DNA from: a virus
Direction: 5' to 3' (one strand)
IMG/VR virus record: IMGVR_UViG_3300046804_003518
Coordinates: 1-64,000 of that record
DNA length: 64,000 nucleotides
Positions 18,495-62,498 of this stretch are shown here, piece after piece (position 1 is the first letter of the stretch; each line of letters begins with the position of its first letter). The notes under the pieces are model-generated. The model had not been told where the DNA came from, made no database searches, and saw only the letters and a program-made list of their open reading frames with translations. The translations under genes and the position numbers were made by a program.

Positions 18495-20294
18495 ATGGCT
18501 AATGGATTCCTTACAACTTCAGAACTAGATTTTTCAAACTATAAATCTAGCCTAAAGACTTTCTTATCCCAACAAGATATCTTCAAAGACTATAACTTTG
18601 AAGGCTCTAACATGGCCGTATTGCTTGATGTTTTAGCGTATAACACTTATCTTAATGGTGTGTATCTTAACATGGTTGGCAGTGAAATGTTTTTAGATAC
18701 CGCTGCATTGAGAGAATCAATTGTATCGCACGCCAAAGAACTAAATTACACTCCTCGTTCTAGAACAGCTGCAGCAGCATATGTTAATATTACTATTACT
18801 CCAGATGACAATCCTGACTCAATTACAATTCCAAAGTACTATCAAATTAACGGTGAGACAAAAGATAATACAACATATTTCTTCACTACTGATGAGGCAA
18901 TTGTAATTAGACCAGATAACGGTGTCTATCAGGCAGCTAATGTTGCAGTATATGAAGGAAACATTGTTAAGGAAGTATTTGTTGCCAATGCAACAGCTCG
19001 TTATTTACTACAATCTGCAAATGTTGATATTCAATCCCTTAATGTTACTATAAAAGACTCTGCCACATCTACAACAGAAACAAAGTGGAATAGAGAAACA
19101 TTTCTGTTTGGTTTAGACAACGCTGACAACGTGTACTTTGTACAAGGTGCCGAAGATCACATGTATGAAGTTGTGTTTGGTAATGGCGATATTGGTAAAG
19201 CACTTGTTGATGGTAATGTTATTACTATTACCTATAGAGAGACAAACGGCATTGATGCTAATGGCGTAGACATATTCTCAGCTCCAAACAGCATCCAAGG
19301 TTACCAAGGAGTTGGTGTAACAACAGTTCAATCTTCTGCTCAAGGATCCGAGCATGAAACTAATGATGAGATTAAGTTCAATGCTCCTCGCTACTTCCCA
19401 ACTCAAAATAGAGCAGTAACAGTAGAAGATTATATTGCATTAACAAAACAAGCATTCCCATCTCTTGAAATTGTTACAGCTTATGGTGGTGAAGAAACAG
19501 AACCAAAACAATACGGTAAAGTAATTGTTGCCGCCAAGCCAATTGGTGGTACAAAACTACCAACTCCGCTCAAGACACAAATTTACAATTTCTTAAAAGA
19601 AAGATCTGCCATATCAATTGATCCAGTTGTAATTGATCCAGAGTATTTCTTTGCTGAAGTTGTAACAGAGGTTCTCTATAATATCAACTTAACAACAAGA
19701 TCAGAAAGAGATATTGGAGCTCTAGTTGAAGAAACAGTCATGCAATGGGGTGATAATAACCTTGCTAAGTTTGGTTCTGATCTAAGATATTCAAAACTTG
19801 TCAAGGCTATTGATGATAGTGAAGCAGCCATCATTAGTAACAATACAAAAGTAAGAATTGTTAAGCATGTTGAGGTGGATACAGGTATTCCATTTAGAAT
19901 TGCTTTTTCGTTTGAGAATGAACTAGAACAAGAAGTTTTATCGGCCAGAAAAATTTACGAAGATACTACATCTACTATTGAGTCCTCATTATTCACTTAC
20001 AATTTAAACAATATTGATTACCTTGCTAAAATTAAAGATGACAGTCAGGGTAACCTAATGATTGTATCCACAGTTAACGGTGTTGTTCAGTTGTTGAAGG
20101 ACAAGGTTGGTACAGTTGACTATGCCACAGGTACAATTTCTATTGGTGCTGTAGTGTATGAAGATGTCGGCCTCAATAACGAATTAGAAATTTATGGCAG
20201 GACAAAGAAGTTAGATATTGAAACAAATGCGAATAAAGTTCTTCAAATAGAGGCAGGACATCTTGTTGTTTCTGTCCGTGGTATTAGAGAATAA
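18495..20294 (+). CDS. 6: baseplate wedge subunit (gp6)
   Basis: ELDF...DYNFEGSNMAVLLDVLAYNT...QNRAVTVEDY motif. Confidence 0.93.
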   Translation: MANGFLTTSELDFSNYKSSLKTFLSQQDIFKDYNFEGSNMAVLLDVLAYNTYLNGVYLNMVGSEMFLDTAALRESIVSHAKELNYTPRSRTAAAAYVNITITPDDNPDSITIPKYYQINGETKDNTTYFFTTDEAIVIRPDNGVYQAANVAVYEGNIVKEVFVANATARYLLQSANVDIQSLNVTIKDSATSTTETKWNRETFLFGLDNADNVYFVQGAEDHMYEVVFGNGDIGKALVDGNVITITYRETNGIDANGVDIFSAPNSIQGYQGVGVTTVQSSAQGSEHETNDEIKFNAPRYFPTQNRAVTVEDYIALTKQAFPSLEIVTAYGGEETEPKQYGKVIVAAKPIGGTKLPTPLKTQIYNFLKERSAISIDPVVIDPEYFFAEVVTEVLYNINLTTRSERDIGALVEETVMQWGDNNLAKFGSDLRYSKLVKAIDDSEAAIISNNTKVRIVKHVEVDTGIPFRIAFSFENELEQEVLSARKIYEDTTSTIESSLFTYNLNNIDYLAKIKDDSQGNLMIVSTVNGVVQLLKDKVGTVDYATGTISIGAVVYEDVGLNNELEIYGRTKKLDIETNANKVLQIEAGHLVVSVRGIRE

Positions 20295-22291
20295 TGAAAG
20301 AACTAGAAAAGTATATATCGCCATTCATTGCTAATCAATTCCCTTCTATCTATAAAGAGGAAGGTCCTCTATTCATTGCATTTGTAAAAGCTTACTTTGA
20401 GTGGCTTGAATCACAAGACCAGGTAATTTACGATTCAAGAAGACTTCTTGAATACAGAGATGTTGATAAGACAGTGGATGTCTTTATTAATAACTTTAAA
20501 AAGAAATATATGTTTCCTATTCCAGATGATATTGCTGGCGATAAGAGACTGCTGCAGAAGCATATTAAAGAAGTTTATGGCTCAAAAGGCACAGAGCGTG
20601 GGTTAAAGCTTCTATTCCAATTATTGTTTGCTGATAATATTAGCGTCTATAAGCCAGGTGATGATGTTCTTAGACTATCAGATGGCGAATGGAATAGAGA
20701 CATTTATCTAGAGGTTTCTTACAAACCCTACAATAGTTTATTTGTGGGTGAGTTTATTAAGGGCCGCATTTCTGGTGCAAGAGCATATGTCGAGAGCTTT
20801 CAGACTAAATTTGTTAACAATAAAAACATTAACGTCTTTTACTTAACAGACGTTGTTGGTAACTTCAGAAATGATGAGGTTGTAATTATTGATGAGGCAA
20901 GGTTAGCGGAGGGACAAGTACCAGCTGTTACAGCAATCAATTCTCCAAAGATTATTGGTTCCATGACAGAAGTGGATGTTGCCAATAGAAGTTCACCATT
21001 TGGTTATTCGGTTGGCGATATTTTGGAAGTCCAGGGTAAAGGCTCTCGCGGTAAAGTTGTAGTAACAAAACTTAAAGAATTGGATGGCACAATTACATTC
21101 AATCTTGAAGATGGAGGATCCGGTTACACAATTAATAATACAGTTTTTCTAATTAAGGGTCCTGTAACTGGTGTTGTGGTTGAGAATGGTGGAGTTGGTT
21201 ACTCAAATTCTGATTATATCGTATTCTCTAATGGAACTGCTAATGCAGTAGCCAATTTAGTAACTGATGGATCAGGTACTATTCTCAACAACACTGCTGG
21301 TGGTGATACCTTATTCACCATTACTCATGGTGGCAATGGATTTTTAACTACAAATGTATTCACCGTCTCGGTTACAGTTTCAAACTCAACTGGTGGTCCT
21401 TCTGCAGGTGCTGGTGCCAACCTTGTTCCTACAATTGCAGGCGGTGGCGATTTGGCAGGACTAAGAATTGGTGCATTGTCCAACATTAAGTATTTGTTTT
21501 CTTCGGCAGCTAAAATCAATCTTGTAGGCAAGTCCCTTAACTACATTGGTACAGCAAACAGTGTTGATAATATGCTTGTTGGTCAGTTGTCGTATCCTAC
21601 AGGTACAGGGTATGGCTTATCGTCAAACGTTGCCGCAGGTTTTGATACTATATTAAAGGATGCTTTAAACTATCAAAATTATGAAGTTGGTACAATCTCA
21701 AAAATCTTTACAACAAATCCTGGTCAAGATTATACTACAAATGTGCAGATTACAGTCACCGACACTATCATTGGTTTAATGGGTTTATTGGATAAGGAAC
21801 ATCCGGCGGGCCGTGGCGACACTGGTAATGGTTACCTAGGCAATAATGCAGTGGTAACGGGAGTCAGTGGTTTTGGTTCAACGGCTCTTGGTGAAGTTAA
21901 GGTTATTGATTCTGGTCTTGGTTATGAACAAAGAGAGGAAGCAACCCTTGTATCTCTATCAAATACAAACCTTATTACATCTGGCACAGTGTTACTAATG
22001 AAGCAAGGTCAGGGCGAAGGATTCTTTAAATCTACTCGTGGCTTTTTAAACTCTGACAAGTATATTCACGATAGTTATTATTATCAAGATTATTCATATG
22101 AAGTAAGATCGTCAGTAGTATTTAATAAGTATAGCGATCTTCTAAGAAAACTTTGGCACCCAGCTGGTGTGGAGAAGTTTGGTCGCGTGCTTGTAAGTAG
22201 TGAAGTAACATCTGCCACACCAGATGTTCTACAGCAGGCATACATAGGGGATGGGTCAACGACGTCGTTTGAAATCCCGGGTGGGGCATGA
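20294..22291 (+). CDS. 7: baseplate wedge initiator (gp7-like)
   Basis: IKEVYGSKGTERGLKLLFQLLF; DSYYYQDYSYEVRS...LWHPAG motif; follows gp6. Confidence 0.75.
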   Translation: MKELEKYISPFIANQFPSIYKEEGPLFIAFVKAYFEWLESQDQVIYDSRRLLEYRDVDKTVDVFINNFKKKYMFPIPDDIAGDKRLLQKHIKEVYGSKGTERGLKLLFQLLFADNISVYKPGDDVLRLSDGEWNRDIYLEVSYKPYNSLFVGEFIKGRISGARAYVESFQTKFVNNKNINVFYLTDVVGNFRNDEVVIIDEARLAEGQVPAVTAINSPKIIGSMTEVDVANRSSPFGYSVGDILEVQGKGSRGKVVVTKLKELDGTITFNLEDGGSGYTINNTVFLIKGPVTGVVVENGGVGYSNSDYIVFSNGTANAVANLVTDGSGTILNNTAGGDTLFTITHGGNGFLTTNVFTVSVTVSNSTGGPSAGAGANLVPTIAGGGDLAGLRIGALSNIKYLFSSAAKINLVGKSLNYIGTANSVDNMLVGQLSYPTGTGYGLSSNVAAGFDTILKDALNYQNYEVGTISKIFTTNPGQDYTTNVQITVTDTIIGLMGLLDKEHPAGRGDTGNGYLGNNAVVTGVSGFGSTALGEVKVIDSGLGYEQREEATLVSLSNTNLITSGTVLLMKQGQGEGFFKSTRGFLNSDKYIHDSYYYQDYSYEVRSSVVFNKYSDLLRKLWHPAGVEKFGRVLVSSEVTSATPDVLQQAYIGDGSTTSFEIPGGA

Positions 22292-25200
22292 GTACAATAG
22301 TTGTCAAAGTAAATGGAGTACTACAGGTACTAGGTACGGATTATACCGTCTCTGGTAACAATATTGTATTTGCCAATCCACCAGATGCAAATGCAAAAGT
22401 GGAGATTAGAAAGGAAGCAGCCAGAAGTGTTTTAGAGACAAGCTTCAAAATTGATCAGATCAGATTGACAGAACTTGTTACTGCATATAGCACACAAACA
22501 ACTGTATCTTCCACATTCAATACATCTATTGGCACAGGCACCACAACAGCGTTTGTCACTGCGTTCTCAACATCTAAGACAACAGATAGTGCAGTTCTTA
22601 CATCCAAGAACACAACAACAGCTTATATTTCTGTATTTGATACAGTATTCAATACAAGTAAGTCAACAACAACTCAATTTGTTACTGCCTACCAAACTGT
22701 ATTCAATACTATTTCAACATTTGATACAACAATTCTTACTTCATACGCCACAACAAAAACAACATCTACTGTATTTGAAACAACAGGTGTTACAAGTAAG
22801 TCAACTACTACAACATATAACACTATCGTCACAACTGTATACGATAGCAATAGAACAACTTCAACTGTTTATAGTACGGCCTATACAACAACGTTTACAA
22901 CCCAAACAGCATATGCAACAACAAGAAACACTGTATATGATACTATTGTTGCCACACTGACAAGCAAAAGCACAGACACAACAGTTGCAACATCAACAAG
23001 CATTAATACTGTATTTGTAACAGCTTATGGTACTACCACTGTATTTAATACAACAAAAGATACTAACCTTTCAACAGCAAAGTCGACAGACACAACTATT
23101 GCTACTTCAAAGGCAACAAATACAACAACTACATTTGCTACAATTTACGATACAACTGGTTCAACATCTAAAAATACAACAACTGCATTCTTAACTGTAT
23201 TTGATACAGCCAAGACAACATCAACTTTATTTGCAACAACATTTGATACAACGTTTGTTACAAATAAACTAACATCAACTAGCAAATCAACAACTTCTGT
23301 ATTCAACACAACAACCACATTTATTACAACATTTGATACTGGTTACGATACTAGTAAGTCAACAACATCGTTGTTTAATACGACAACAACATTCAATACA
23401 TCATATGCAACTAACTTTGCAACGACAACAGCATTTGAAACAAATGTAGCAACCCAAACCGCTGTATCACAAAATACTGCCAGAAATACAACTACAATAT
23501 TCAACACAGCAACAAGCAAATCAACTACAACAATATTCAACACAGCAACTACGTTTAATACAACGTATGCAACTAACTTTGCAACAACAACCTCGTTTGA
23601 AACTAATTTCATTACAGCAACAAACCGTGGAACAAGTAGAGCCACTGATACAACTGGCTCAACAAGTAGAGCAACAGGTACTTCAAGAGTAACCACAACT
23701 GTATTTAATACAACAACTGTATACGATACTGCAACAGCATTCCAAACAAGTACAATATTCCAAACACAGACAACCGCAGCTGGCTCAACAACATTCTTGA
23801 CAGCAAATGAAGTTACATTTCAAACCTTTACTATAAAGGGTACTGGTGCAAGTTACATTACAACGTACCAAACAAGCTATGATACAATTATTGGCTATGG
23901 TAAGGGTGGTTTACCAATCTATGGCCAGACATATTTCAATACATCGAAATCTACACAGCCTTTAACTGCGTTTTATTTCCAGACCACAGCTGTGGGTGTA
24001 ACTGTGACAACCTATGCAACTTACACATACCTACCTCAAGGGTTTGGTTATGTGTTTTTTGATACAACAAAACTAACAGCCACGGCAAGTAGACTTACAT
24101 CAAGAGGTACGACATTCTATTTTCAAACAGATACAAGTAGAAGTACAGACACATCTAGAGCCACAAGTACATCTAGAGCCACAAGTACGTCTGCATCAAC
24201 AACCACTGCATATGATACTTCAACAACGTTTGGCACTACGTATCAGACAACAACCTCGTTTGTAACGACCTTTGACACATTAACAATATTTGGTACATCT
24301 AAGAGCACAACAACAGTATTTGATACAGCAAGAAGTACTGCTGCTGCCACAAGCACAAGCGGATCAACTACATCTGTATTTGATACAGCAACGTCAGCTG
24401 TAACATCAACGACCTTTATTACTACCTATCTAGCAGCTACAACAACAGTATTTGTAACATCTAAGAGCACAACAACAGTCTTTGATACAGCAAAGGCCAC
24501 GAGTGCAGTAACTGCCACAAGTGCGGCCACATCCACTGCATTCAACACTCTTGTTTCAACTTCTAACACAACAAGTAGAGCAACAGCAACGAGCGTTGCC
24601 ACAACAACTGTATTTGATACATCTACAGCATATGATACAAACATTGCAACTGTAAGAGACACATCCAAGTCAACAGCTACAACATACGAAACTAATTTTG
24701 GCACAAGTGCTGTCACAGCAACAGTGTTTAATACTGTATATAACACGGTAGGAGCTACCCAAAAAGCAACTGCTACGACAACAGTCTTTAATACAGCATA
24801 CGCCACAACAACAACATTTGATACAGTATACCAAACCGTATTTAATACAAACAAAACAACCGATACTTCTATCAACACCTCAAGATCTACATTGGGTACA
24901 ACAGGATCTGTATATCAAACATCTACAGCATATAATACCCAAACAGCATTTGAAACAAACAGAAACACGGTATTTGACACTGTTGTGGCAACAGACACAT
25001 CTCGCGACACAATTATCTTAACATCTAAGAGCACAACAACATCATTTGAAACGGCAATTAATACTGGCTATGACACAAGCAAGTCTACAACATCCGTATT
25101 CAACACAGTATTCAATACTGCCAAAAATACAACCAGCGTATTTGACACAACAATTGATACTTCATATGCTACAACAAAAGCCACTGCAACATCAAAATTT

Positions 25201-28200
25201 ACAACAAATTTAACTGGAAGAAGTACAACCAGCAGCTTTGACACAGCTTATGCAACTGCAATTGCAACATCCAAAACTACATCAACTGCATTTATTACCG
25301 GGTATGATACAACAACTTTGTTTGATACTTCTACTCCTACAACAAGAAACACCCTTACTCAATCTGTTTACTCAACCACTTCAAGCACATTGAAGGGCAC
25401 TGATACTGCCATCTTAACAGAATATAGAATTCTCGCAACTCAAACATTGTTTAGTACTAAGTATGAAACCACATATGAAACAATTGCTGGTGTACTAACA
25501 ACAATTTCTACGGATGTTGTAACCAACAGAACAACTAATACTGCATACGCATTTGAAAGTAGAAATACGTTAAGGGATACTGCTTTTCAAACAACAAATC
25601 CAACATTGATTGCCACAACAACATTATTCCAAACATCATACAATACAAATCAGATCACACGCTTTGTTACACTTAACACTGCCTTTGGCACAAGTAAAAA
25701 TACATCAACAGTATTTGATAAAGCCACTACAACTGTATTTGCAACAATAAGTGCATTTGATACTGTAAAGACCACAGACTTCTCTACATCACGTAATACG
25801 TTAATTACTTCTTCAACAGCATTTGAAACAAGTAAGACAACTCTTGTAGCAACTGGTACATCTAGAACTACTACCTCTTCGTATCAGACAAATATAAACA
25901 CAGTGTTCAATACAGGATACGACACATCCAAGTCAACAACATCGTTATTTGTTACAGCATTTTTAACTGTCTCAACTTTTGAAACTAATAAGACAACCTC
26001 AAGAACAACAACGCTAACTAAGGGCACAGAAATTCTCACTTTCTTTGCTACATCTCAATCAACTGTTAAGCCAACAAGCACAACGCGATCAACAGTTTAT
26101 GTTAGTGACTTTGTCACCGTCTCCCGTACTACAACATTTGTAACAGGCACAAATGAAGTAACGTCATTTGATACTAAGAGGGGTACAAACATTGATACAG
26201 TGTTTGATAGCTCAACATCTTTCTTAACGAGCTTTAACACTACTCTTAATAAGACCACAACAGCAATTACTAATAAGAGTACAACTACAGGATTTGACAC
26301 TTTTGTTAACACATCAAAGGTAACTAATGTTGCAACATCCACAGATACGTTAACTTCATTCAATACAATAACTGGCTTTTTGACATCATTTGATACAAAC
26401 AAGACGACACAGAGTTCAAAATCAACTGTATTCAATACTGCGTTTGACACAACGTTTGCCACAACAAAGTCAACATCCACAAGTAGAAGTACAACCACAT
26501 CTACAAGTAAAAGTACCTCGACGGCATACGATACAACAAAGAGTACCGTTAATAATACGAGCACAACTTACCAAACCACATTCCAAACAGATTCTGGTGC
26601 CGGCACTCTACATAACACATCAGCTTTAACAACTGGTCTAACCGGTACTCTTACTTCTTCAGTTACAGTTAAGTTAACAACAGTTGACACAACTAAATCA
26701 ACAGAAACACAGTATCTGATGTCAAGTAGCTATGGGACAGGTACTGTATTTGAAACTGTTGTCGGTACAGCATACGAAACATCAACAGTATTTAATACGA
26801 CAACTGCATTTAATACTGATACAGTATTTAACACCACAACAACCTTTCAAACAGATTCTGGTAAGGGTACATTGAAGTCGACCTCTAAGTCTACTGCAAC
26901 AAGTTACGCTACTGGCACAAGTAAAAATACATCCACATCAAAAATAACATTAACAGCAAGTGGTACGTATTATATTTCTCAAAGAAATACTACATCTGCC
27001 TATGACACAACAAAAAATACAGCTGGTGGATTAACAAGTCGAGCCACAAGCACGTCAGACACCACAACAACTGTTTACCTAAGTGCCTATCAATCAAACA
27101 TTAACACGACAACAACATACTTGTCGTCATACTCAACTGTCATTGATACAAGCAGACAAACGCAAGCTCTTACATCATTTGGAACATCAAGAACTACAGA
27201 AACAATATTCCAAACTGCCGCTTTAGGTGGCACTCTATTCAATACAACAAAGAATACAACTACCGCATTTGATACAGTTTATCTCATTACACAATCTGTT
27301 GCCTCAACTGCTACCACATTTCAAACTGATTCTGGAGCTGGTACACTAAAGAATACATCTCAGAACACAATTACTGCGTATACAAGATTTGAAGGTGGTA
27401 AGCAGACGTCAACTGTATTCTCTACAGCGTTTGCTACAAATCCGTTTGTAACAACTGCATATGGCACATCTAGAACTACAACAACTGTATACCCAACAGT
27501 GTTTACAGAATTTGGTACATCTAAAGACACCACAACTACTTTCCAGACCGACTCAGGCGCTGGTACAATGAAGGCAACGTCAAAGGACACAGTAACAGCA
27601 TTTAATACAATCTATGCAACTGCCCCAGTAACATCAAAGTCAACAACCACATCATTTGACACCATTTATAGTACTGGTATACCAACAACAAGACAAACAG
27701 CCACATTGTTGACAACTGCTACTGCATATGCAACTGAAACTGCAAAAATTACTGGCTCAGGTAAAATTACACAATTTGCAACTACAACTACAATCAACAC
27801 TGATACAGCAAGAGGAACTTCAACTACATTCCAAACGGATTCTGGTAAAGGCACACTTCACAGCACGTCAAGAAATACTCTAACTGGTACATTGACATCA
27901 TTTAACACTACAACTTTAACAATTAGCGACATGCTAACAAGCAAGTCCACTAGCACTACAACAGACCAAGGAACTCTTGTTAATACATCTACAAGCACTT
28001 CTTATGCTACACAAACTGAGTATGCAACCTCAGGTGGTGCAACAGTATTTGGTACCTCAGTAACAACTGAGACAGTCATTGACTTTACAGTTAGAAACAC
28101 GGAATATCAAACGCTAACTTCTGTTGATACATTAACGTATTATGAATCAGGGGATAGACTAACTGCAAAAACTACAGCAATTTTAACTAACACAAATACA

Positions 28201-28395
28201 TCTCAAATTGTTAGAGATACAACAAGAACAACGTCAATTGATACAACGTATATCACAACCTTCTTGACAGACTCAGGCGCAGGTACAATGGTGTCAACAT
28301 CAAAGTCAACATCTAGAACAACTGACAAGATAACAAACACCGATTACGATACAGCAATTCAAACAACATATGAAACTGTTTATATAAATAACTAG
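22288..28395 (+). CDS. 2035 aa Thr-rich self-complementary beta-hairpin fibre protein
   Basis: T-x-T periodicity; mirrored 4/6 spacing with i+j=1109 verified in two windows; six F(Q/L)TDSG(A/K)GT turn motifs in the C-terminal part. Confidence 0.8.
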   Translation: MSTIVVKVNGVLQVLGTDYTVSGNNIVFANPPDANAKVEIRKEAARSVLETSFKIDQIRLTELVTAYSTQTTVSSTFNTSIGTGTTTAFVTAFSTSKTTDSAVLTSKNTTTAYISVFDTVFNTSKSTTTQFVTAYQTVFNTISTFDTTILTSYATTKTTSTVFETTGVTSKSTTTTYNTIVTTVYDSNRTTSTVYSTAYTTTFTTQTAYATTRNTVYDTIVATLTSKSTDTTVATSTSINTVFVTAYGTTTVFNTTKDTNLSTAKSTDTTIATSKATNTTTTFATIYDTTGSTSKNTTTAFLTVFDTAKTTSTLFATTFDTTFVTNKLTSTSKSTTSVFNTTTTFITTFDTGYDTSKSTTSLFNTTTTFNTSYATNFATTTAFETNVATQTAVSQNTARNTTTIFNTATSKSTTTIFNTATTFNTTYATNFATTTSFETNFITATNRGTSRATDTTGSTSRATGTSRVTTTVFNTTTVYDTATAFQTSTIFQTQTTAAGSTTFLTANEVTFQTFTIKGTGASYITTYQTSYDTIIGYGKGGLPIYGQTYFNTSKSTQPLTAFYFQTTAVGVTVTTYATYTYLPQGFGYVFFDTTKLTATASRLTSRGTTFYFQTDTSRSTDTSRATSTSRATSTSASTTTAYDTSTTFGTTYQTTTSFVTTFDTLTIFGTSKSTTTVFDTARSTAAATSTSGSTTSVFDTATSAVTSTTFITTYLAATTTVFVTSKSTTTVFDTAKATSAVTATSAATSTAFNTLVSTSNTTSRATATSVATTTVFDTSTAYDTNIATVRDTSKSTATTYETNFGTSAVTATVFNTVYNTVGATQKATATTTVFNTAYATTTTFDTVYQTVFNTNKTTDTSINTSRSTLGTTGSVYQTSTAYNTQTAFETNRNTVFDTVVATDTSRDTIILTSKSTTTSFETAINTGYDTSKSTTSVFNTVFNTAKNTTSVFDTTIDTSYATTKATATSKFTTNLTGRSTTSSFDTAYATAIATSKTTSTAFITGYDTTTLFDTSTPTTRNTLTQSVYSTTSSTLKGTDTAILTEYRILATQTLFSTKYETTYETIAGVLTTISTDVVTNRTTNTAYAFESRNTLRDTAFQTTNPTLIATTTLFQTSYNTNQITRFVTLNTAFGTSKNTSTVFDKATTTVFATISAFDTVKTTDFSTSRNTLITSSTAFETSKTTLVATGTSRTTTSSYQTNINTVFNTGYDTSKSTTSLFVTAFLTVSTFETNKTTSRTTTLTKGTEILTFFATSQSTVKPTSTTRSTVYVSDFVTVSRTTTFVTGTNEVTSFDTKRGTNIDTVFDSSTSFLTSFNTTLNKTTTAITNKSTTTGFDTFVNTSKVTNVATSTDTLTSFNTITGFLTSFDTNKTTQSSKSTVFNTAFDTTFATTKSTSTSRSTTTSTSKSTSTAYDTTKSTVNNTSTTYQTTFQTDSGAGTLHNTSALTTGLTGTLTSSVTVKLTTVDTTKSTETQYLMSSSYGTGTVFETVVGTAYETSTVFNTTTAFNTDTVFNTTTTFQTDSGKGTLKSTSKSTATSYATGTSKNTSTSKITLTASGTYYISQRNTTSAYDTTKNTAGGLTSRATSTSDTTTTVYLSAYQSNINTTTTYLSSYSTVIDTSRQTQALTSFGTSRTTETIFQTAALGGTLFNTTKNTTTAFDTVYLITQSVASTATTFQTDSGAGTLKNTSQNTITAYTRFEGGKQTSTVFSTAFATNPFVTTAYGTSRTTTTVYPTVFTEFGTSKDTTTTFQTDSGAGTMKATSKDTVTAFNTIYATAPVTSKSTTTSFDTIYSTGIPTTRQTATLLTTATAYATETAKITGSGKITQFATTTTINTDTARGTSTTFQTDSGKGTLHSTSRNTLTGTLTSFNTTTLTISDMLTSKSTSTTTDQGTLVNTSTSTSYATQTEYATSGGATVFGTSVTTETVIDFTVRNTEYQTLTSVDTLTYYESGDRLTAKTTAILTNTNTSQIVRDTTRTTSIDTTYITTFLTDSGAGTMVSTSKSTSRTTDKITNTDYDTAIQTTYETVYINN
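28383..28390 (+). promoter_or_regulatory. T4-type late promoter embedded in the last codons (YINN) of the Thr-rich gene
   Basis: TATAAATA upstream of the gp8-like gene. Confidence 0.7.
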
Positions 28396-56410: not shown

Positions 56411-59400
56411 ATGCCAGGTAAATTATTCTTTAATGACAACGGCACTCTGAGAGAAGCCGAAATTCTGAAAGTCAACGATGGCGGTATTCTACGTACCGTT
56501 AGGGATGCCTATGTTAATCAGAATGGTGTTCTAAGGCAAATTTACTCTGCTACAAAAGATACATCATACGAAACTTCTAGATCAACTGTATTTGAGACAG
56601 TCATTGTCACGACATTTGATACAACAATTTCAACAAATAGAAATACAACAACTGCTTTTGTGACGTTGTTTGAAACTGGCTATGATACAAGCAAGGCAAC
56701 TGCAACAAATAGAAACACTTCTACATCCAGAGCAACTGCCTACGCTACAACAAGAACAACTGCAACTGTATTTCAAACTTTAACCGTATTTGAAACAACA
56801 ATTGGTACTAATAGAGTAACATCAACCTCTAGGGCTACCACGACAAGTTTCCTCACTAACACTGTATTTGAAACAACTATCAATACAGCAAGAAATACTG
56901 CAACTTCTAGAGCTACCACAACAATATTTATTACAAACACTGTATTTGAAACAACTATCAATACAGCAAGAAATACTGCAACCTCAAAATCAACTGCAAC
57001 GGTATTTGACACCAATACAGTATTTGATACAACAATTAATACAGCAAGAAATACTGCAACAAGCAGAAGTACAGATTCTGTATTTGATACTGTAATTGGC
57101 ACAAATAGAACTACTCTATCTGTATTCAATACCGTTACGGCGTTTCAAACAACAACGGCGTTTGAAACTGCTTATGCTACAACCACAGTATTCAATACGA
57201 CAACTACGTTTGATACGGTAATTGATACTGCTCGTAATACAGCAACCACAAGATCTACAACCACTGCTTATGACACTGGGTATGATACAAGTAAGATAAC
57301 AAATACAGTATTCAATACTGGTACAATAAAAGATACCGTTATTGACACATCTAGATCTACTGCAACAAGTATAGCTACAACAACTGTCTTCCAGACGGCC
57401 TATGCTACAAGCAGAGCCACAGCAACTAGCAGATCTACAGATACTACAATTGATACATCTAGAGCTACAGCAACTAGCAGATCCACAGATACTACAATTG
57501 ATACATCTAGAGCAACGGCTACCTCTAGAGCAACTGACACAACAATTGTTACATCTAGGTTGACAGATACGTCTCAATCTACCACAACAACATTTAACAC
57601 AACAACGACGTTTGACACTGCTTACGCAACGACGACGACGTTTAATACTACAACTACGTTTGACACAGCATATGCTACGACAACAACGTTTAATACCACA
57701 ACTACGTTTGATACTATAATTGCAACAACAAGAGCAACAGACACTTCAAGATCAACCACTACTACGTTCCAAACAACGACAGTATTTCAAACAACTACTA
57801 CATTCCAAACAACAACTACGTTTAACACTATTACAACTTATATCACCTCTCTAGGTGGTAACACTGTATTCCAAACAACAACTACGTTTAATACTATTAC
57901 AACGTATATTACCACTCTTGTTGCTGGAACAACTAGAGCAACTGACACTTCAAGATCAACTACTACCACGTTCCAGACAACGACTGTATTTAATACAATC
58001 ACAACGTATATTACTACTCTTGTTAATGCAACTTCAAGAGCAACCGATACATCTAGAGCCACAACTACAACATTCCAGACTACAACTACATTTGGTACTA
58101 CGTTCTTCTTTAATACAAGTAAGGCAACAACATTCTACTTCAATACAACAACTACATTTGGTACTACGTTCTTCTTTAATACAAGTAAGGCAACTACGTT
58201 TTACTTCAACACATCTGTTATTACAACAACAACATTTATTACGTCAGCTGTTGGTCTTACAACGTTTATTACAACGGCTGTTGCTGGTACAAGTAAGGCA
58301 ACGACGTTCTACTTTAACACAACATACATCACAACAGCCGCTGCTGCAACCTCTAAGGCTACAACATTCTACTTTAACACAAGTGTTGGTGGTACTACAT
58401 ATTTCAGCTCAGGGTTCATAACAACATTCTACACAGTGATTGGTATAGCCTATTACAAATGGTGGTCAAACCAGTACTTTGGCAATACAACCAGAGCCAC
58501 ATCTGTAATTACATCCAAGGCTACAACATTCTACTTTGGCACAAGTGCTGGTGGTACTACCTACTTTAATACAACATTCTACTTTAATACAGTTAGAGGT
58601 ACCAGTGCTGGTGGTACTACTTTCTTCAACACTACCTTTTATTTCAATACGTCTAGAAACACGACGTTCTACTTTAACACAGCTAGAGCAACAACATCTA
58701 CCTTTATCACAACTCTAGGTGGTATCACAACATTCATTACAACTCTAGGTGGTACAACATCTAGAGCAACAGGTACTTCAGTTGGTGGTATTACTACATT
58801 TATTACAACATTGGGTGGTACAACATCTAGAGCAACAGATACGTCTAGAGCAACTACAACCACATTCCAAACAACAACAACGTTTAACACTACGTTCTTT
58901 TTTAATACAACTCTTGCTACAGCCACTTCTAGAGCAACAGATACGTCTAGAGCAACAACTACAACATTTCAGACAACAACTGCATTCAACACAACATTCT
59001 TCTTTAATACAACTCTAGCAACTGCAACTTCTAGAGCAACTGATACGTCTAGAGCAACTACGTTCTTCTTTAATACTACTTTGGCCACGGCAACAAGTAG
59101 AGCAACCGATACATCTAGAGTAACTGATACTTCTAGAGCTACTGACACATCTAGAGCTACAACAACAGTTTTCCAAACAACAACAACGTTTGAGACTGCC
59201 TATGCTACAAGCAGAGCTACCGCAACCAGCAGATCTACTGACACAACAATTAGCACATCTAGAGCTACTGCAACAAGTAGAGCAACAGATACAACAATTA
59301 GCACATCTAGAGCTACTGCAACAAGTAGAGCTACAACTACTGTCTTCCAGACAACAACAGCATTTAATACAGCTTATGCTACAACAACGGTATTTGATAC

Positions 59401-60370
59401 TACAACAACATTTGCTACTGCATATGCAACCACAACAATATTCAACACAACTACAACATTTGCTACTGCATATGCTACAACAACGGTATTCAATACAACG
59501 ACAACATTCGACACTGTAATTGATACAAACAAGTCAACTACTTCAGTATTCAATACAACCACAACATTTGCTACTGCCTACCAAACATCAGATGTTAAGT
59601 CAACTAACTTTGATACATCAACTGCCTATAACACTCTTGTTGGTACAAGCAAGTCAACAATATCAACATTTGATACATCTACTACATTTCAGACAGCTTA
59701 TGCAACAAATAGAGTTACTGCTACAGATAGATCAACCGACACTATAATTGGCACTTCTAGAGCAACTGAGACATCTAGAAATACAGCTACTGATAGAAAT
59801 ACCGTAACGGCATTTGAAACTGCATATGCTACAAACATTGCAACAACAACCGTATTTGATACATCAACAACATTTGAAACTTCTTATGCTACTGGTAGAA
59901 ACACATCAACCAACCGTTTAACGACATCGGTGTTTGATACATCAACAACATTTGAAACGACGTATGATACAAACTTTGATACACTAACCAACCGTTCAAC
60001 AACATCGGTATTTGATACATCAACAACATTTGAAACAACTTATAATACAAACTTTGATACACTTACAAGCCGCTCAACAACGTCTGTATTTGATACAACA
60101 ACATCATTTGAAACGACGTATGACACAAATATCCTTACATCAACTTCAAGAAATACAGTATCAACATTTGATACCGAGATTGTAACTGTATTTGATACTG
60201 TAACGGTATTCAATACAACAACATCTTACGACTCGCAATATGGCACAGACCGTGCAACAAGTAAGACAACAACTTCTGTGTTCAATACAGCCTATGCTAC
60301 AAATCGCAATACGGCATTCAACACATCACAAAACACAACATTCAATACAACTATCGAAACATACTTCTAA
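56411..60370 (+). CDS. 1319 aa Thr-rich self-complementary beta-hairpin fibre protein
   Basis: Mirror register i+j=1368 verified at residues 49-173/1195-1319 and 583-673/695-785; apex IAYYKWWSNQY. Confidence 0.85.
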   Translation: MPGKLFFNDNGTLREAEILKVNDGGILRTVRDAYVNQNGVLRQIYSATKDTSYETSRSTVFETVIVTTFDTTISTNRNTTTAFVTLFETGYDTSKATATNRNTSTSRATAYATTRTTATVFQTLTVFETTIGTNRVTSTSRATTTSFLTNTVFETTINTARNTATSRATTTIFITNTVFETTINTARNTATSKSTATVFDTNTVFDTTINTARNTATSRSTDSVFDTVIGTNRTTLSVFNTVTAFQTTTAFETAYATTTVFNTTTTFDTVIDTARNTATTRSTTTAYDTGYDTSKITNTVFNTGTIKDTVIDTSRSTATSIATTTVFQTAYATSRATATSRSTDTTIDTSRATATSRSTDTTIDTSRATATSRATDTTIVTSRLTDTSQSTTTTFNTTTTFDTAYATTTTFNTTTTFDTAYATTTTFNTTTTFDTIIATTRATDTSRSTTTTFQTTTVFQTTTTFQTTTTFNTITTYITSLGGNTVFQTTTTFNTITTYITTLVAGTTRATDTSRSTTTTFQTTTVFNTITTYITTLVNATSRATDTSRATTTTFQTTTTFGTTFFFNTSKATTFYFNTTTTFGTTFFFNTSKATTFYFNTSVITTTTFITSAVGLTTFITTAVAGTSKATTFYFNTTYITTAAAATSKATTFYFNTSVGGTTYFSSGFITTFYTVIGIAYYKWWSNQYFGNTTRATSVITSKATTFYFGTSAGGTTYFNTTFYFNTVRGTSAGGTTFFNTTFYFNTSRNTTFYFNTARATTSTFITTLGGITTFITTLGGTTSRATGTSVGGITTFITTLGGTTSRATDTSRATTTTFQTTTTFNTTFFFNTTLATATSRATDTSRATTTTFQTTTAFNTTFFFNTTLATATSRATDTSRATTFFFNTTLATATSRATDTSRVTDTSRATDTSRATTTVFQTTTTFETAYATSRATATSRSTDTTISTSRATATSRATDTTISTSRATATSRATTTVFQTTTAFNTAYATTTVFDTTTTFATAYATTTIFNTTTTFATAYATTTVFNTTTTFDTVIDTNKSTTSVFNTTTTFATAYQTSDVKSTNFDTSTAYNTLVGTSKSTISTFDTSTTFQTAYATNRVTATDRSTDTIIGTSRATETSRNTATDRNTVTAFETAYATNIATTTVFDTSTTFETSYATGRNTSTNRLTTSVFDTSTTFETTYDTNFDTLTNRSTTSVFDTSTTFETTYNTNFDTLTSRSTTSVFDTTTSFETTYDTNILTSTSRNTVSTFDTEIVTVFDTVTVFNTTTSYDSQYGTDRATSKTTTSVFNTAYATNRNTAFNTSQNTTFNTTIETYF
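56858..57080 (+). repeat. 78-bp coding tandem repeat (about 3 copies), N arm
   Basis: Units start at 56858, 56936 and 57014; the first two share 47 identical nt. Confidence 0.85.
59924..60130 (+). repeat. 78-bp coding tandem repeat (about 3 copies), C arm
   Basis: Units start at 59924, 60002 and 60080 (TSVFDTSTTFETTYxTNFDTLTxRST). Confidence 0.85.
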
Positions 60371-60621: not shown

Positions 60622-61608
60622 ATGGTAGCTGAAGTTCCAGGTAAGGGTGGAAAGAATAAATTCTTTACTATGTCTTCAAATGAGTGGGTAAACGATGATG
60701 TAACCCATTTTATGAAGTCTGGTAATATACTAAGGTCTCCAATCAACGAGAGACTATCCGAAATAGCCAAGCACATTCCTAAGAATCCAAATGGATCCAA
60801 AATTGAGTATGATATCAATTATGGTAGTCCAAGTGGCACAATTGCTGGTTATAAATTTACGGATTTGTTAACTCAGATACTCTATCTTGCTCCATGTAAT
60901 ACCCAAATTGCAACAAAGAATATGATTGATTGCATTAGAAAGGGAGCAACTCCAGAAGGCCATAGAATTGTAGAGGCCCTAAGGGCAAATCTCACCGATA
61001 AGTATCTTTTAGACGAAGACCTTGATCTTGAATACGGCGATGTTAACGAATTAGTGCTCCTCCCAGGTACTAACCTTATAACAAAAGATGCTGTGGACTT
61101 TAAGAAGGTAGACGAACTCTATAATAATGGAGCTTGGGTTAAGCTCCATCCTATTACCGCTAAGGTTTGGCAAACTATGCTTGAAAAAAGATTCAAGGGT
61201 AGAGTTGTAAAAAACGAAGCATCAATGTATCCAATATTGAAGCGCTCAAAGAAGGTTTACTTCACCCTATCCTCTGAAACCGGATGTGCTGCCGTTCTTT
61301 TAGGTAAGGGAATTGGTCTTATTGATAATAAAGAAGCAAAGGTTGGTAAGACATTTGAAGCTGTTTATATGTCACTTGACAGAAGTGGCGTAAAGGATAA
61401 ACTAATTAATAAGTTTGCTGCCCTCATGTCCTACCCTGAATCAGGATTGATTAGCGTTCACCACGAAAATAAAGAAGAATGTATTCAAAGATTTTTTGAC
61501 AACATGAAGCAGCATAGACACGTTACGTTATCAAAGAAGCCTGGTGAAGAAGGGGATGATGTTATTGTAAAAGAGCTAGAACAACAGGGTGGATTGAAGC
61601 AACAATGA
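60622..61608 (+). CDS. KpsC/KpsS-like (capsule synthesis, GT-B) glycosyltransferase-like protein
   Basis: WVKLHP...ILKRSKKVYFTLSSETGCAAVLLGK resembles the K-HP...S..G.EA..GK pattern. Confidence 0.45.
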   Translation: MVAEVPGKGGKNKFFTMSSNEWVNDDVTHFMKSGNILRSPINERLSEIAKHIPKNPNGSKIEYDINYGSPSGTIAGYKFTDLLTQILYLAPCNTQIATKNMIDCIRKGATPEGHRIVEALRANLTDKYLLDEDLDLEYGDVNELVLLPGTNLITKDAVDFKKVDELYNNGAWVKLHPITAKVWQTMLEKRFKGRVVKNEASMYPILKRSKKVYFTLSSETGCAAVLLGKGIGLIDNKEAKVGKTFEAVYMSLDRSGVKDKLINKFAALMSYPESGLISVHHENKEECIQRFFDNMKQHRHVTLSKKPGEEGDDVIVKELEQQGGLKQQ

Positions 61609-62498
61609 AAACTATATTAATTGCCCAACATCATGGTACGTTTTTTACCTTAAATTCTTTAAAAGAAAAAGGTATAACGGATGTAACTATTATTATTCCC
61701 GGTAGCCAAGTTAACAAGTACAATGATATGTACAATAATAACTCTAGCAATCCAGAATATAAGCCATTTGAAAAGTATGACAATTTGGTTTCTTCTTTCC
61801 TAAAGAAGAATAATCTCAATTACAAGGCCTATGTTGTAGAAGATTTTGATGTTAGGAACACATTAGTTTCAACACTAAAGGTTATTGCTGATTTGGGATA
61901 TCAAGAAATTGTAGCGTGCATTTTGAGTGGTACTGTTGTTAATAAAGACTATAGATCAACCGCCAAAGAAGCCTTAAACTTTAAGACATTTGGAATGTGT
62001 TATTCCAGAGTTTATCATGGCCACAATCAGCTCTCAATGTACCACATGCTTGGATTGCCTCAACATGATCCATCATTGGATTTAAACTTTTTTATTGTTG
62101 ACATGAGCAAAATTAAACTTTCTGACTTGCAGAAGGGAGACGGTGAGCTTTTATCTGAGTCTGTTAAGAAAAAGCAAGTAAACATTATTGGTAGAGAATA
62201 TAATGGAAAGGACGATGCGCTAATTGGTACTGCAATTTCTGCTCGCCAAACAATTGCCCACAATCTTAAAATCCAATCAGGTTACATTGTCAACTTATGG
62301 AATAAGTCGATCAAAGCAAATAGTCTATTGAAATCAGAAGAATTCTATGGCTACCCTTTGAATATATACAGCACTCTTGGGGCAAATCTTGACGGGTATC
62401 TACCAAAAAGTACGCTGGATAAGATCATCACGAATGGTAAAGAAACGGAAAAACTCACTAGCGGTCTTTATGAATGTCTGGATATAATTGATCTATAA
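61605..62498 (+). CDS. GT8-like (GT-A fold) glycosyltransferase-like protein
   Basis: DLNFFIVDMSKIK resembles FNSGVMLIDL and GREYN resembles ..YN; no clear DxD. Confidence 0.35.
   Translation: MKTILIAQHHGTFFTLNSLKEKGITDVTIIIPGSQVNKYNDMYNNNSSNPEYKPFEKYDNLVSSFLKKNNLNYKAYVVEDFDVRNTLVSTLKVIADLGYQEIVACILSGTVVNKDYRSTAKEALNFKTFGMCYSRVYHGHNQLSMYHMLGLPQHDPSLDLNFFIVDMSKIKLSDLQKGDGELLSESVKKKQVNIIGREYNGKDDALIGTAISARQTIAHNLKIQSGYIVNLWNKSIKANSLLKSEEFYGYPLNIYSTLGANLDGYLPKSTLDKIITNGKETEKLTSGLYECLDIIDL

What the first reader, a model, noticed from the sequence alone, without database searches (positions are those of the whole stretch)
56411..60370. A 1319-aa self-complementary protein: one giant beta-hairpin zipper of about 635 residues per strand
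Seen in sequence: every second residue is Thr or a large residue (R/K/F/Y/I). From the N-terminus, large residues (49,53,57,61,65,69,73,77,83,87,91,95,101,107...) are spaced 4,4,4,4,4,4,4,6,4,4,4,6,6,4,4,6,6,4,4,6,6,6. Reading backwards from F1319 gives the identical series. The same register (i+j=1368) holds next to the centre (583-673 vs 695-785), and the midpoint is W684 of the non-repetitive loop IAYYKWWSNQY. Inference: the chain folds back on itself as one continuous antiparallel ribbon of about 210 nm (at ~0.33 nm/residue), longer than T4 long tail fibres. I know of no described phage fibre built this way; it would normally be dismissed as low-complexity sequence.
Basis: partly seen in the sequence, partly recalled or inferred. 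Interest (0 to 1): 0.96.

Follow-up and report, generated by a model that had tools for sequence, protein, structure and literature searches.

The report
Giant self-pairing phage fibre protein
A 1319-residue threonine-rich protein of an uncultured T4-like phage has a second half that matches its first half in reverse, residue by residue, under a pairing rule that relatives preserve through matched insertions, so the chain almost certainly folds back on itself into a very long thin beta fibre of a kind I found described in no paper.

Summary
In the ORF at 56411-60370, odd positions carry Thr or a large residue. The large residues of the N arm (49-567) coincide with those of the reversed C arm at one register, i+j=1368 (Dice 0.96; at most 0.60 in shuffles and rotations). 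The match is complementary, not identical: 64 cation-aromatic and 29 aromatic-aliphatic rungs, 4 aromatic-aromatic, no cation-cation. All 13 aromatic triplets near the tip face Gly/Ala-rich triplets at the same register.

Every tandem-repeat array in one arm has a partner array of equal period at the mirror position. Three orthologues with arms up to 76 residues shorter show indels of 2, 14, 16 and 26 residues matched across the arms. The DNA has no inverted repeats. A paralogue in the window and a gp7-like baseplate-wedge family, which includes cultured Stenotrophomonas phage DLP6, follow the same rule.

Best reading: an intramolecular fold-back antiparallel beta ribbon, probably a virion fibre. 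The 3D shape and oligomeric state are not shown, because structure predictors failed. The closest known case is the T4 gp37 needle, but this protein lacks its His-iron motif. The scan has found the same design in at least eight other phage genomes. I found no published description.

The parts
56411..60370 (+). Whole gene, 1319 codons plus stop (protein P0001)
   Evidence: Open frame. Conserved with the same neighbours in three other viral contigs, L009, L010 and L011.
56411..56554 (+). N-terminal anchor module, residues 1-48: three 14-residue repeats with the motif N(D/Q)(N/G)G(T/I/V)LR at residues 8, 22 and 36
   Evidence: The same module heads small unrelated phage proteins of 137-239 aa. 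Its role as the virion attachment site is inferred.
56555..58111 (+). N arm of the stem, residues 49-567
   Evidence: Pairs without a gap with residues 801-1319 at i+j=1368.
58112..58450 (+). Outgoing half of the tip module, residues 568-680: no acidic residues, more aromatic residues and Gly, with FYF/FFF triplets
58451..58477 (+). Apex, residues 681-689 (YYKWWSNQY), centred on W684
   Evidence: Orthologues have YYKGIPLPYY, YFKGQPLQAP or YYKGIPIPYY at their own centres of symmetry.
58478..58810 (+). Returning half of the tip module, residues 690-800
58811..60367 (+). C arm of the stem, residues 801-1319. The last residue, F1319, faces K49.
56823..57060 (+). N-arm tandem array, period 78 nt x 3.1 (residues 138-217). 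Its mirror partner is the array at 59841-60129.
   Evidence: An orthologue lacks one 26-residue unit in both arrays.
59841..60129 (+). C-arm tandem array, period 78 nt x 3.7 (residues 1144-1240), partner of 56823-57060
57413..57558 (+). N-arm array, period 48 nt x 3 (residues 335-383, Arg-type units). Its mirror partner is 59330-59508 (Phe-type units).
59330..59508 (+). C-arm array, period 48 nt x 3.7 (residues 974-1033)
57584..57715 (+). N-arm array, period 48 nt x 2.8 (residues 392-435, Phe-type units). Its mirror partner is 59213-59335 (Arg-type units).
59213..59335 (+). C-arm array, period 48 nt x 2.6 (residues 935-975)
57868..58093 (+). N-arm array, period 102 nt x 2.2 (residues 486-561). 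Its mirror partner is 58821-59061.
58821..59061 (+). C-arm array, period 102 nt x 2.4 (residues 804-884)
22288..28395 (+). Paralogue P0012 (2035 aa), a second Thr-rich fold-back protein. Arms 62-496 and 613-1047 pair at i+j=1109. It lies directly after the gp7-like wedge gene.
20294..22291 (+). gp7-position baseplate wedge gene (665 aa). In relatives it is fused to the Thr-rich hairpin.

Best explanation
The protein is a virion fibre built as a protein stem-loop.

Fold. After a 48-residue anchor of three short repeats, the chain runs out as one long beta strand. It turns at an aromatic apex around W684 and runs back. Residue i pairs with residue 1368-i in an antiparallel ribbon.

Pairing rules.
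- Face 1 (odd positions): Thr faces Thr. Every 4 or 6 residues there is a rung with exactly one aromatic residue (F/Y) facing a long aliphatic or cationic partner (R/K or I/L).
- Face 2 (even positions): small and acidic residues in preferred pairs (A with T/V; D/N/Q with S/T).
- Tip (the last ~115 residues per arm): aromatic triplets lie over Gly-Gly.

Why the register is unique. Repeat families with different rung spacings follow one another in a non-periodic order, so only one register fits. The chain can then zip up from the apex as the C arm is made.

Length changes. The fibre length changes in evolution by gain or loss of repeat units in both arms at once.

Oligomeric state and function. 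I think one chain most likely makes one two-stranded ribbon up to about 0.2 micrometre long, with the acid-free, aromatic tip as the host-contact end.

Shown versus inferred. Shown: the mirror register, the complementarity rule, and the matched indels and arrays, in this protein, its orthologues, a paralogue and a second family. Inferred: beta-ribbon geometry, a single chain per fibre, the length, virion attachment and the binding role of the tip.
For: - A single mirror register with no gap over 517 residues. Rung positions coincide at Dice 0.956 against at most 0.60 in controls.
- Complementarity: 64 cation-aromatic rungs (33 expected), 29 aromatic-aliphatic (15 expected), 4 aromatic-aromatic (26 expected), 0 cation-cation (10.5 expected). 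None of 20000 permutations reached the observed cation-aromatic count.
- Even-face pairs A:T, A:V, D:T, N:S and Q:S are enriched (z 3 to 6.6). Charges are split by face: +77/-1 against +0/-69.
- All 13 aromatic triplets face Gly/Ala-rich triplets, and only at i+j=1368.
- Five tandem arrays have mirror partners of equal period and similar copy number.
- Orthologues L009, L010 and L011 have their own single registers (1280, 1292, 1216) and matched indels against P0001: 374-389/974-989, 434-447/919-932, 627-640/725-738, 171-196/1170-1195.
- Turn-like Gly/Pro motifs lie at the centre of symmetry in the relatives.
- Paralogue P0012 and the gp7-like family follow the same rule. Across 19 family members: 505 cation-aromatic, 118 aromatic-aliphatic, 33 aromatic-aromatic and 4 cation-cation cells; 14 column pairs with orientation flips; matched indels; arms of 250 to 720 residues.
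- No DNA inverted repeat.
- No second register carries the code, and the rung spacing is not uniform. Both fit a strand with a single partner.
- In the fused family the fibre hangs on the gene at the gp7 position (PMC5349666). T4 gp7 is a monomer with 6 copies per tail (PMC3004832).
- A low-confidence AlphaFold2 model of the P0007 hairpin places long strands at mirror positions 20-61/494-539, 172-207/354-402 and 247-265/292-310.
Against: - No confident structure. AlphaFold2 gave pLDDT 29 for P0001 residues 120-1248 without an alignment and 36 for a homologous hairpin with 18 sequences.
- A two-stranded ribbon has no hydrophobic core, and no isolated ribbon of this length has been seen.
- Fibres of T4-like phages are mostly trimers.
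- The tip module has hydrophobic residues on both faces, which may mean thicker packing there.
- In the gp37 needle a Gly facing a Phe of another chain is part of a trimer core.
- There is no evidence that the protein is in the virion.
Confidence: 0.6

Rival explanations
1. The chain folds back in the same way, but three chains bundle into a six-stranded needle, as in the tip of the T4 long tail fibre (gp37). It would be a very long trimeric needle rather than a single-chain ribbon.
For: The gp37 needle domain D11 is an out-and-back structure in a trimer, with Gly facing a core Phe of a neighbouring chain (PMC6957217). Most fibres of T4-like phages are trimers (PMC3004832). The tip module here has aromatic residues on both faces opposite Gly-Gly.
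Against: There are no His residues at all, so no His-iron sites. Neither face of the main stem looks like a core: one is Thr plus Arg/Phe, the other Ala/Ser/Asn/Asp, with 69 acidic residues on one face. No second pairing register carries a code. Rung spacing is not periodic, as an intertwined helix would need. Relatives attach the hairpin to a gp7-position protein, and T4 gp7 is a monomer in the baseplate. The anchor has three repeats within one chain.
Confidence: 0.22
2. The arms pair between chains rather than within one. The N arm of one molecule pairs with the C arm of another, giving antiparallel dimers or chains of molecules.
For: Mirror complementarity and matched indels cannot by themselves tell pairing within a chain from antiparallel pairing between identical chains.
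Against: Non-repetitive aromatic or Gly/Pro turn motifs lie exactly at the centre of symmetry in every relative. In the fused family an antiparallel dimer would put the two baseplate wedge domains at opposite ends of the rod. The pairing runs up to the apex itself.
Confidence: 0.08
3. The repeats fold locally into a beta solenoid or a string of short hairpins between neighbouring Arg-type and Phe-type arrays. The global mirror would then be a by-product of repeat symmetry.
For: Neighbouring arrays such as 335-383 (Arg type) and 392-435 (Phe type) are also complementary to each other in principle. The failed AlphaFold2 model drew short strands near the tip.
Against: Arrays about 1000 residues apart (138-217 and 1144-1240) match in period and lose a unit together in an orthologue. 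The main stem has no turn-forming Gly or Pro. Repeat periods change along the arm (16, 22, 26 and 34 residues), which a solenoid does not tolerate. Rotated or forward comparisons reach a Dice of only 0.59.
Confidence: 0.05
4. The region is a disordered, low-complexity Thr-rich spacer, possibly glycosylated, with no defined pairing.
For: 37% Thr. HMMER bias filters and predictors treat it as low complexity.
Against: There is strict two-residue alternation, one mirror register, a pairing rule and matched indels in two families. None of these is expected in a disordered spacer.
Confidence: 0.03

Closest known systems
Needle domain (D10-D11) of the T4 long-tail-fibre tip protein gp37 (PDB 2XGF, as described in PMC6957217)
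   Same: It is a phage fibre in which each chain runs to the distal tip and returns, so both ends of the segment lie at the proximal side and the receptor-binding residues sit at the turn. Gly opposite an aromatic residue is structurally essential.
   Different: gp37 D11 spans about 128 residues (882-1009). It is an obligate trimer held by seven iron ions bound to His residues. P0001 has about 635 residues per arm, no His, no sequence match to any PDB chain, a Thr-based alternation and an explicit residue pairing rule. Its oligomeric state is unknown.
SasG/Aap B-region rods of staphylococci (PMC4458895) and variable-length 'Periscope' surface proteins (PMC8201768)
   Same: A single chain forms a long, thin, mostly beta rod without a conventional hydrophobic core. 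Its length changes with repeat number.
   Different: Those rods are strings of small domains with local folding. They have no fold-back of the whole chain, no mirror register and no need for matched changes in two distant arms. This is a resemblance of principle only, recalled and read from abstracts, not tested.
Favoured cross-strand pairs of antiparallel beta sheets and designed beta hairpins: Thr-Thr, cation-pi Arg/Lys with Phe/Tyr/Trp, and 'aromatic rescue' of Gly (own knowledge)
   Same: The pair types used here are the ones known to stabilise neighbouring antiparallel strands.
   Different: Those are statistical preferences or pairs in hairpins about 12-16 residues long. Here they are used as a near-strict rule over more than 600 rungs and set the register of a whole protein.
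RNA stem-loops (analogy only)
   Same: Two arms complementary in antiparallel sense, a loop at the centre of symmetry, and evolution by compensatory changes and matched indels.
   Different: This is a polypeptide. The complementarity is by side-chain size and chemistry, not by hydrogen-bonded bases, and it is not encoded by a DNA inverted repeat.
gp7-position baseplate wedge proteins with Pfam PF23786, for example Stenotrophomonas phage DLP6 AMQ65900.1 (P0024)
   Same: Their C-terminal 590 residues are homologous to P0001 (E 3.7e-18 for P0002) and follow the same mirror rule.
   Different: They carry a wedge domain of about 540 residues and a carbohydrate-binding-like insert, and their arms are shorter (about 265 residues in DLP6). 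P0001 has only a 48-residue repeat anchor and lies between fibre genes and the neck gene.

Membership tests
gp37-type fold-back needle (T4 long tail fibre tip) | The chain runs to the tip and returns, with the N- and C-side strands paired | tested here: met
   Mirror register, complementarity and matched indels. This rests on sequence covariation, not on a structure.
gp37-type fold-back needle (T4 long tail fibre tip) | His-x-His motifs that bind iron along the axis | tested here: not met
   P0001 has no His. The feature is described in PMC6957217.
gp37-type fold-back needle (T4 long tail fibre tip) | Homotrimer | not testable with these tools
   No confident model could be obtained. This needs solution biophysics or EM.
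gp37-type fold-back needle (T4 long tail fibre tip) | Sequence similarity to gp37 or another solved fibre | tested here: not met
   phmmer against all PDB chains found no hit at E<=1. Pfam and PHROGs gave no family.
Pfam PF23786 baseplate wedge (gp7-position) proteins with a Thr-rich C-terminal hairpin | N-terminal wedge domain PF23786 | tested here: not met
   No Pfam hit for P0001 even at E<=10. The domain is encoded separately at 20294-22291.
Pfam PF23786 baseplate wedge (gp7-position) proteins with a Thr-rich C-terminal hairpin | Homologous Thr-rich mirror-coded arms | tested here: met
   E 3.7e-18 to P0002. The family shows the same code and matched indels.
Mirror-coded fold-back Thr-rich phage fibres (informal class seen by this scan in other genomes) | Two-residue alternation with Thr on one face | tested here: met
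Mirror-coded fold-back Thr-rich phage fibres (informal class seen by this scan in other genomes) | One dominant mirror register across both arms, above controls | tested here: met
Mirror-coded fold-back Thr-rich phage fibres (informal class seen by this scan in other genomes) | Complementary (not identical) residues at paired sites | tested here: met
Mirror-coded fold-back Thr-rich phage fibres (informal class seen by this scan in other genomes) | Arm-matched indels in relatives | tested here: met
Beta solenoid / beta helix fibres | Constant coil length with recurring turn residues, and direct rather than mirror repeat logic | tested here: not met
   Repeat periods of 16, 22, 26 and 34 residues follow one another. 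The stem has almost no Gly or Pro. The best forward or rotated match reaches Dice 0.59 against 0.96 for the mirror.

The most novel reading that the evidence does not exclude
A single polypeptide forms a two-stranded beta ribbon about 0.2 micrometre long with no hydrophobic core. A simple residue-pairing rule sets its register: Thr with Thr, aromatic with Arg/Lys/Ile, aromatic triplet with Gly-Gly, and small with beta-branched or acid with hydroxyl on the other face. The rule evolves by compensatory changes and matched repeat gains and losses, as an RNA stem does. This would be a natural, programmable 'protein duplex', used by many T4-like phages to make fibres of adjustable length from one chain.
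Probability: 0.5. Interest if true: 0.95.

Novelty: categorically new. Interest (0 to 1): 0.85.

Why it matters
If the fold-back ribbon is real, it is a new way to build a long fibre. The fibre would come from one chain rather than a trimer. Its register would be set by a readable pairing rule, and its length would be tuned by paired repeat changes.

- Structural biology: it would be the longest known beta hairpin by far, and a test case that current predictors fail on.
- Protein design: the rule is simple enough to copy for making rods of set length.
- Phage biology: it would explain what the large 'low-complexity' Thr-rich genes in many uncultured T4-like phages are. It also points to their aromatic, acid-free apex as a likely host-contact site.

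A cultured relative, Stenotrophomonas phage DLP6, carries a shorter version on its gp7-position baseplate protein. The idea can therefore be tested at the bench now.

Tried and rejected
- AlphaFold2 on P0001 residues 120-1248 without an alignment gave pLDDT 29 and no usable model.
- AlphaFold2 on the P0007 hairpin (residues 696-1288) with 18 sequences gave pLDDT 36. The strand positions fit the mirror, but the model is too weak to use for geometry or fold search.
- Complex prediction with three copies of residues 560-808 returned no verdict. It says nothing either way.
- phmmer of residues 1-1200 against 1.8 billion representatives gave only 12 weak hits, mostly to the N-terminal anchor, presumably because of composition filters.
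- megablast and tblastn of the region, of P0001 and of its anchor against 50,697 phage records found no match.
- The search for related loci with P0007 alone found nothing. The alignment query worked.
- The ESM Atlas holds the sequence but no model. The nearest clusters are unnamed viral proteins with scores below 0.9.
- Counting substitutions pair by pair on the four-orthologue alignment was too noisy, because MAFFT places repeat indels differently in the two arms. I rely on each orthologue's own register and on the indel map instead.
- I tested whether the short Thr-rich strand before the carbohydrate-binding-like insert of gp7-like proteins pairs with their C-terminal tail. The result was inconclusive (Dice 0.55-0.64 on about 40 residues).
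- I searched for a second pairing register that would indicate hairpin-to-hairpin contacts and found none.
- Eight literature searches turned up no paper describing such a fibre. The 'tentaclin' paper and the phiKZ structural atlas were checked and are unrelated.


Full report
**What is there**

The finding's coordinates hold one open frame, 56411-60370 on the + strand, of 1319 codons. The protein (P0001) is 37% Thr and has no His and no Cys. From residue 49 to the end it alternates strictly. Odd positions carry Thr or a large residue (F, R, Y, I, K). Even positions carry A, S, N, D, V or T.

The window belongs to a 188-kb viral record with a T4-like tail and baseplate module: hub-lysozyme, gp25, gp6-like and further wedge subunits, and several fibre genes. 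Its nearest cultured relative by the gp6-like protein is Stenotrophomonas phage DLP6, at 47% identity. P0001 lies after a 366-aa fibre-like gene and two genes before a neck gene (phrog_211).

**Checking the observation**

- Of all mirror registers, i+j=1368 stands alone. Dice is 0.72 over the whole protein and 0.84 for residues 49-560. The next register reaches about 0.5 and the best forward shift 0.43.
- Counting only the odd face of 49-567, rung positions in the N arm and the reversed C arm coincide with Dice 0.956. The maximum was 0.60 in 5000 shuffles of the spacings. It was 0.59 for every rotation of the C-arm series, forward or reversed. The rotations keep the repeat structure.
- A local alignment of the protein against its own reverse needs no gap from 51 to 567.
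- The midpoint is W684, in YYKWWSNQY.

**The match is complementary, not identical**

At the 97 rungs where both sides are large:

| Rung type | Observed | Expected by permutation |
|---|---|---|
| cation with aromatic | 64 | 33 |
| aromatic with aliphatic | 29 | 15 |
| aromatic with aromatic | 4 | 26 |
| cation with cation | 0 | 10.5 |
| cation with aliphatic | 0 | 9.5 |

None of 20000 permutations reached the observed cation-aromatic count. Every rung therefore has one aromatic ring and one long non-aromatic partner.

- On the other face A:T, A:V, D:T, N:S and Q:S are enriched, and A:A, S:T and T:V are depleted.
- Charges are completely split by face. One face carries 77 basic and 1 acidic residues. 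The other carries 0 basic and 69 acidic.
- Near the centre my simple scoring lost the register. At i+j=1368, however, all 13 aromatic triplets (FYF, FFF) face GGL, GGV, GGA, AAA, AVA, GVA, NVL or AVL. No neighbouring register does this. The register thus runs to the apex under a second rule, aromatic over Gly.
- The last ~115 residues of each arm (568-800) form a distinct tip module with no acidic residues and more aromatic residues and Gly.

**It is not a DNA palindrome**

The gene has 18 families of direct repeats and no inverted repeat. A reverse complement would not encode a reversed peptide in any case. Parts of the two arms are direct homologues of each other, for example 57340-57534 and 59140-59334 at 78% identity. 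Arg-type units in one arm pair with Phe-type units in the other.

**Arm-matched change**

This is the test that matters most. Within P0001, every tandem array in the N arm has a partner of equal period and similar copy number at its mirror position:

| Period | N arm | C arm |
|---|---|---|
| 78 nt | residues 138-217 | residues 1144-1240 |
| 48 nt | 335-383 | 974-1033 |
| 48 nt | 392-435 | 935-975 |
| 102 nt | 486-561 | 804-884 |
| 66 nt | 558-601 | 770-811 |

Three full-length orthologues from other viral contigs, with the same gene neighbours, are 1287, 1299 and 1169 residues long. Each has its own single register (1280, 1292, 1216), and gap-free pairing runs for 348-546 residues.

Aligned to P0001, their indels come in mirror pairs:
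- 374-389 with 974-989 (16 residues)
- 434-447 with 919-932 (14 residues)
- 459-460 with 909-910 (2 residues)
- 627-640 with 725-738 (14 residues)
- one whole 26-residue unit, 171-196 with 1170-1195

Their centres of symmetry carry turn-like motifs: YYKGIPLPYY, YFKGQPLQAP and YYKGIPIPYY.

**The same rule in other proteins**

- A paralogue in the window, P0012 (22288-28395, 2035 aa), pairs 62-496 with 613-1047 at i+j=1109, with K/R facing F/Y.
- The database homologues of P0001 are proteins of about 1250-1420 aa. They have a Pfam PF23786 baseplate wedge domain, a carbohydrate-binding-like insert and a Thr-rich tail.
- In P0007 the tail pairs 706-970 with 979-1243 without a gap.
- Across 19 members, the mirror columns hold 505 cation-aromatic, 118 aromatic-aliphatic, 33 aromatic-aromatic and 4 cation-cation cells. 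Slid registers look quite different.
- Fourteen column pairs show orientation flips, against 0-8 in slid controls. That margin is modest, because the repeats are periodic.
- Indels in this family are matched across the arms as well.
- One member is the protein that the DLP6 authors list as gp7.
- In viral contigs the fused forms range from 1260 to 2432 aa, with arms of about 250 to 720 residues, always matched. In this window the wedge domain and the Thr-rich part are separate genes.

**What it most likely is**

Matched indels and complementary residues between segments up to 1200 residues apart are hard to explain unless the segments touch. The pair types are those known to stabilise neighbouring antiparallel strands (own knowledge). 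There are almost no turn residues in the stem. Turn motifs sit at the centre of symmetry. I therefore read the protein as a fold-back antiparallel beta ribbon, and I put about 0.9 on fold-back pairing itself.

The succession of repeat families with different rung spacings makes only one register fit. That would let the C arm zip onto the N arm from the apex outward as it is made; this step is inferred.

The N-terminal 48 residues are three 14-residue repeats with the motif NDNGTLR. The same module also heads small unrelated phage proteins. I take it to be the attachment module and the acid-free aromatic tip to be the distal, host-contact end; both are inferred. At 0.33 nm per residue the stem would be about 0.2 micrometre long, which is arithmetic only.

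**One chain or three**

I favour one chain per ribbon (0.6 for the full statement), for five reasons:
- No second register carries the code.
- Rung spacing is not uniform.
- Neither face of the stem looks like a core.
- The anchor has three repeats within one chain.
- The fused relatives sit at the gp7 position, and T4 gp7 is a monomer with six copies per tail (PMC5349666; PMC3004832). That the PF23786 proteins are true gp7 counterparts rests on gene order only. A profile search of the PDB did not find T4 gp7.

The main rival (0.22) is a trimer of hairpins like the gp37 needle. That needle is out-and-back and trimeric, with Gly facing a core Phe of another chain (PMC6957217). The tip module here could pack that way. 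Pairing between chains, local hairpins or a solenoid, and disorder are less likely, for the reasons given under rivals.

**Structure prediction**

Prediction gave little. AlphaFold2 without an alignment failed (pLDDT 29). With 18 sequences, the P0007 hairpin model had pLDDT 36. Its long strands fall at mirror positions (20-61/494-539, 172-207/354-402, 247-265/292-310, with i+j=559 expected), which is weakly consistent.

**Comparison with what is known, and novelty**

The closest known structure is the gp37 needle. P0001 shares the out-and-back logic. It fails the defining His-iron feature (no His), has no sequence match to any solved chain and is about five times longer per arm. SasG-type rods show that a single chain can make a thin beta rod without a core (PMC4458895), but they fold locally.

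None of my eight literature searches found a description of a mirror-coded Thr-rich fold-back fibre.

The scan's own notes record the same design in at least eight other phage genomes, and twice more on this gene. These are unchecked AI notes. I used them as leads for the gp37 comparison and for the triplet-versus-Gly idea, and tested both here.

I rate the design as categorically new, with the caveat that its three-dimensional form is still inferred from sequence.

Noticed in passing
window:22288-28395 (+), protein P0012: This second Thr-rich fold-back protein (arms 62-496 and 613-1047) has a loop of about 116 residues with a motif like the P0001-orthologue apex (GYGKGGLPIYG). Its C-terminal half carries six copies of TDSG(A/K)GT(L/M) at residues 1434-1994. 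The same motif ends the 56-residue C-terminal tail that P0001 orthologues L009 and L010 have and P0001 lacks. It may be a docking motif.
   Followed up: partly
window:20294-22291 and 22288-28395; L094 11408-15274 (DLP6): The gp7-position wedge gene and the Thr-rich hairpin are one fused gene in DLP6 and many viral contigs (1260-2432 aa). Here, and in about 20 other contigs, they are split into two genes with overlapping stop and start (661-665 aa plus a separate Thr-rich ORF).
   Followed up: partly
window:56411-56554; proteins P0015, P0017, P0018, P0020, P0021: A 3 x 14-residue NDNGTLR repeat module heads several small (137-239 aa) phage proteins with unrelated C-terminal domains. It looks like a portable attachment module. 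No Pfam or PHROG family covers it.
   Followed up: partly
proteins P0002-P0011, residues about 576-705: The gp7-like proteins carry a domain of about 130 residues similar to DUF642 and to the Cry protoxin carbohydrate-binding region. It lies between a short Thr-rich strand and the hairpin. Whether the short strand pairs with the C-terminal tail could not be decided.
   Followed up: partly
window:30480-36308 and 36322-38031 (+): Proteins of 1942 aa and 569 aa lie at the position of the two 'VrlC' genes of DLP6. They are large baseplate-periphery proteins of unknown structure.
   Followed up: no
window:60622-61608 and 61605-62498 (+): Two conserved genes (328 and 297 aa; phrog_26179, unknown function) lie between the fibre gene and the neck gene in all four orthologous loci. 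They are candidates for assembly helpers of the fibre, but nothing supports this yet.
   Followed up: no
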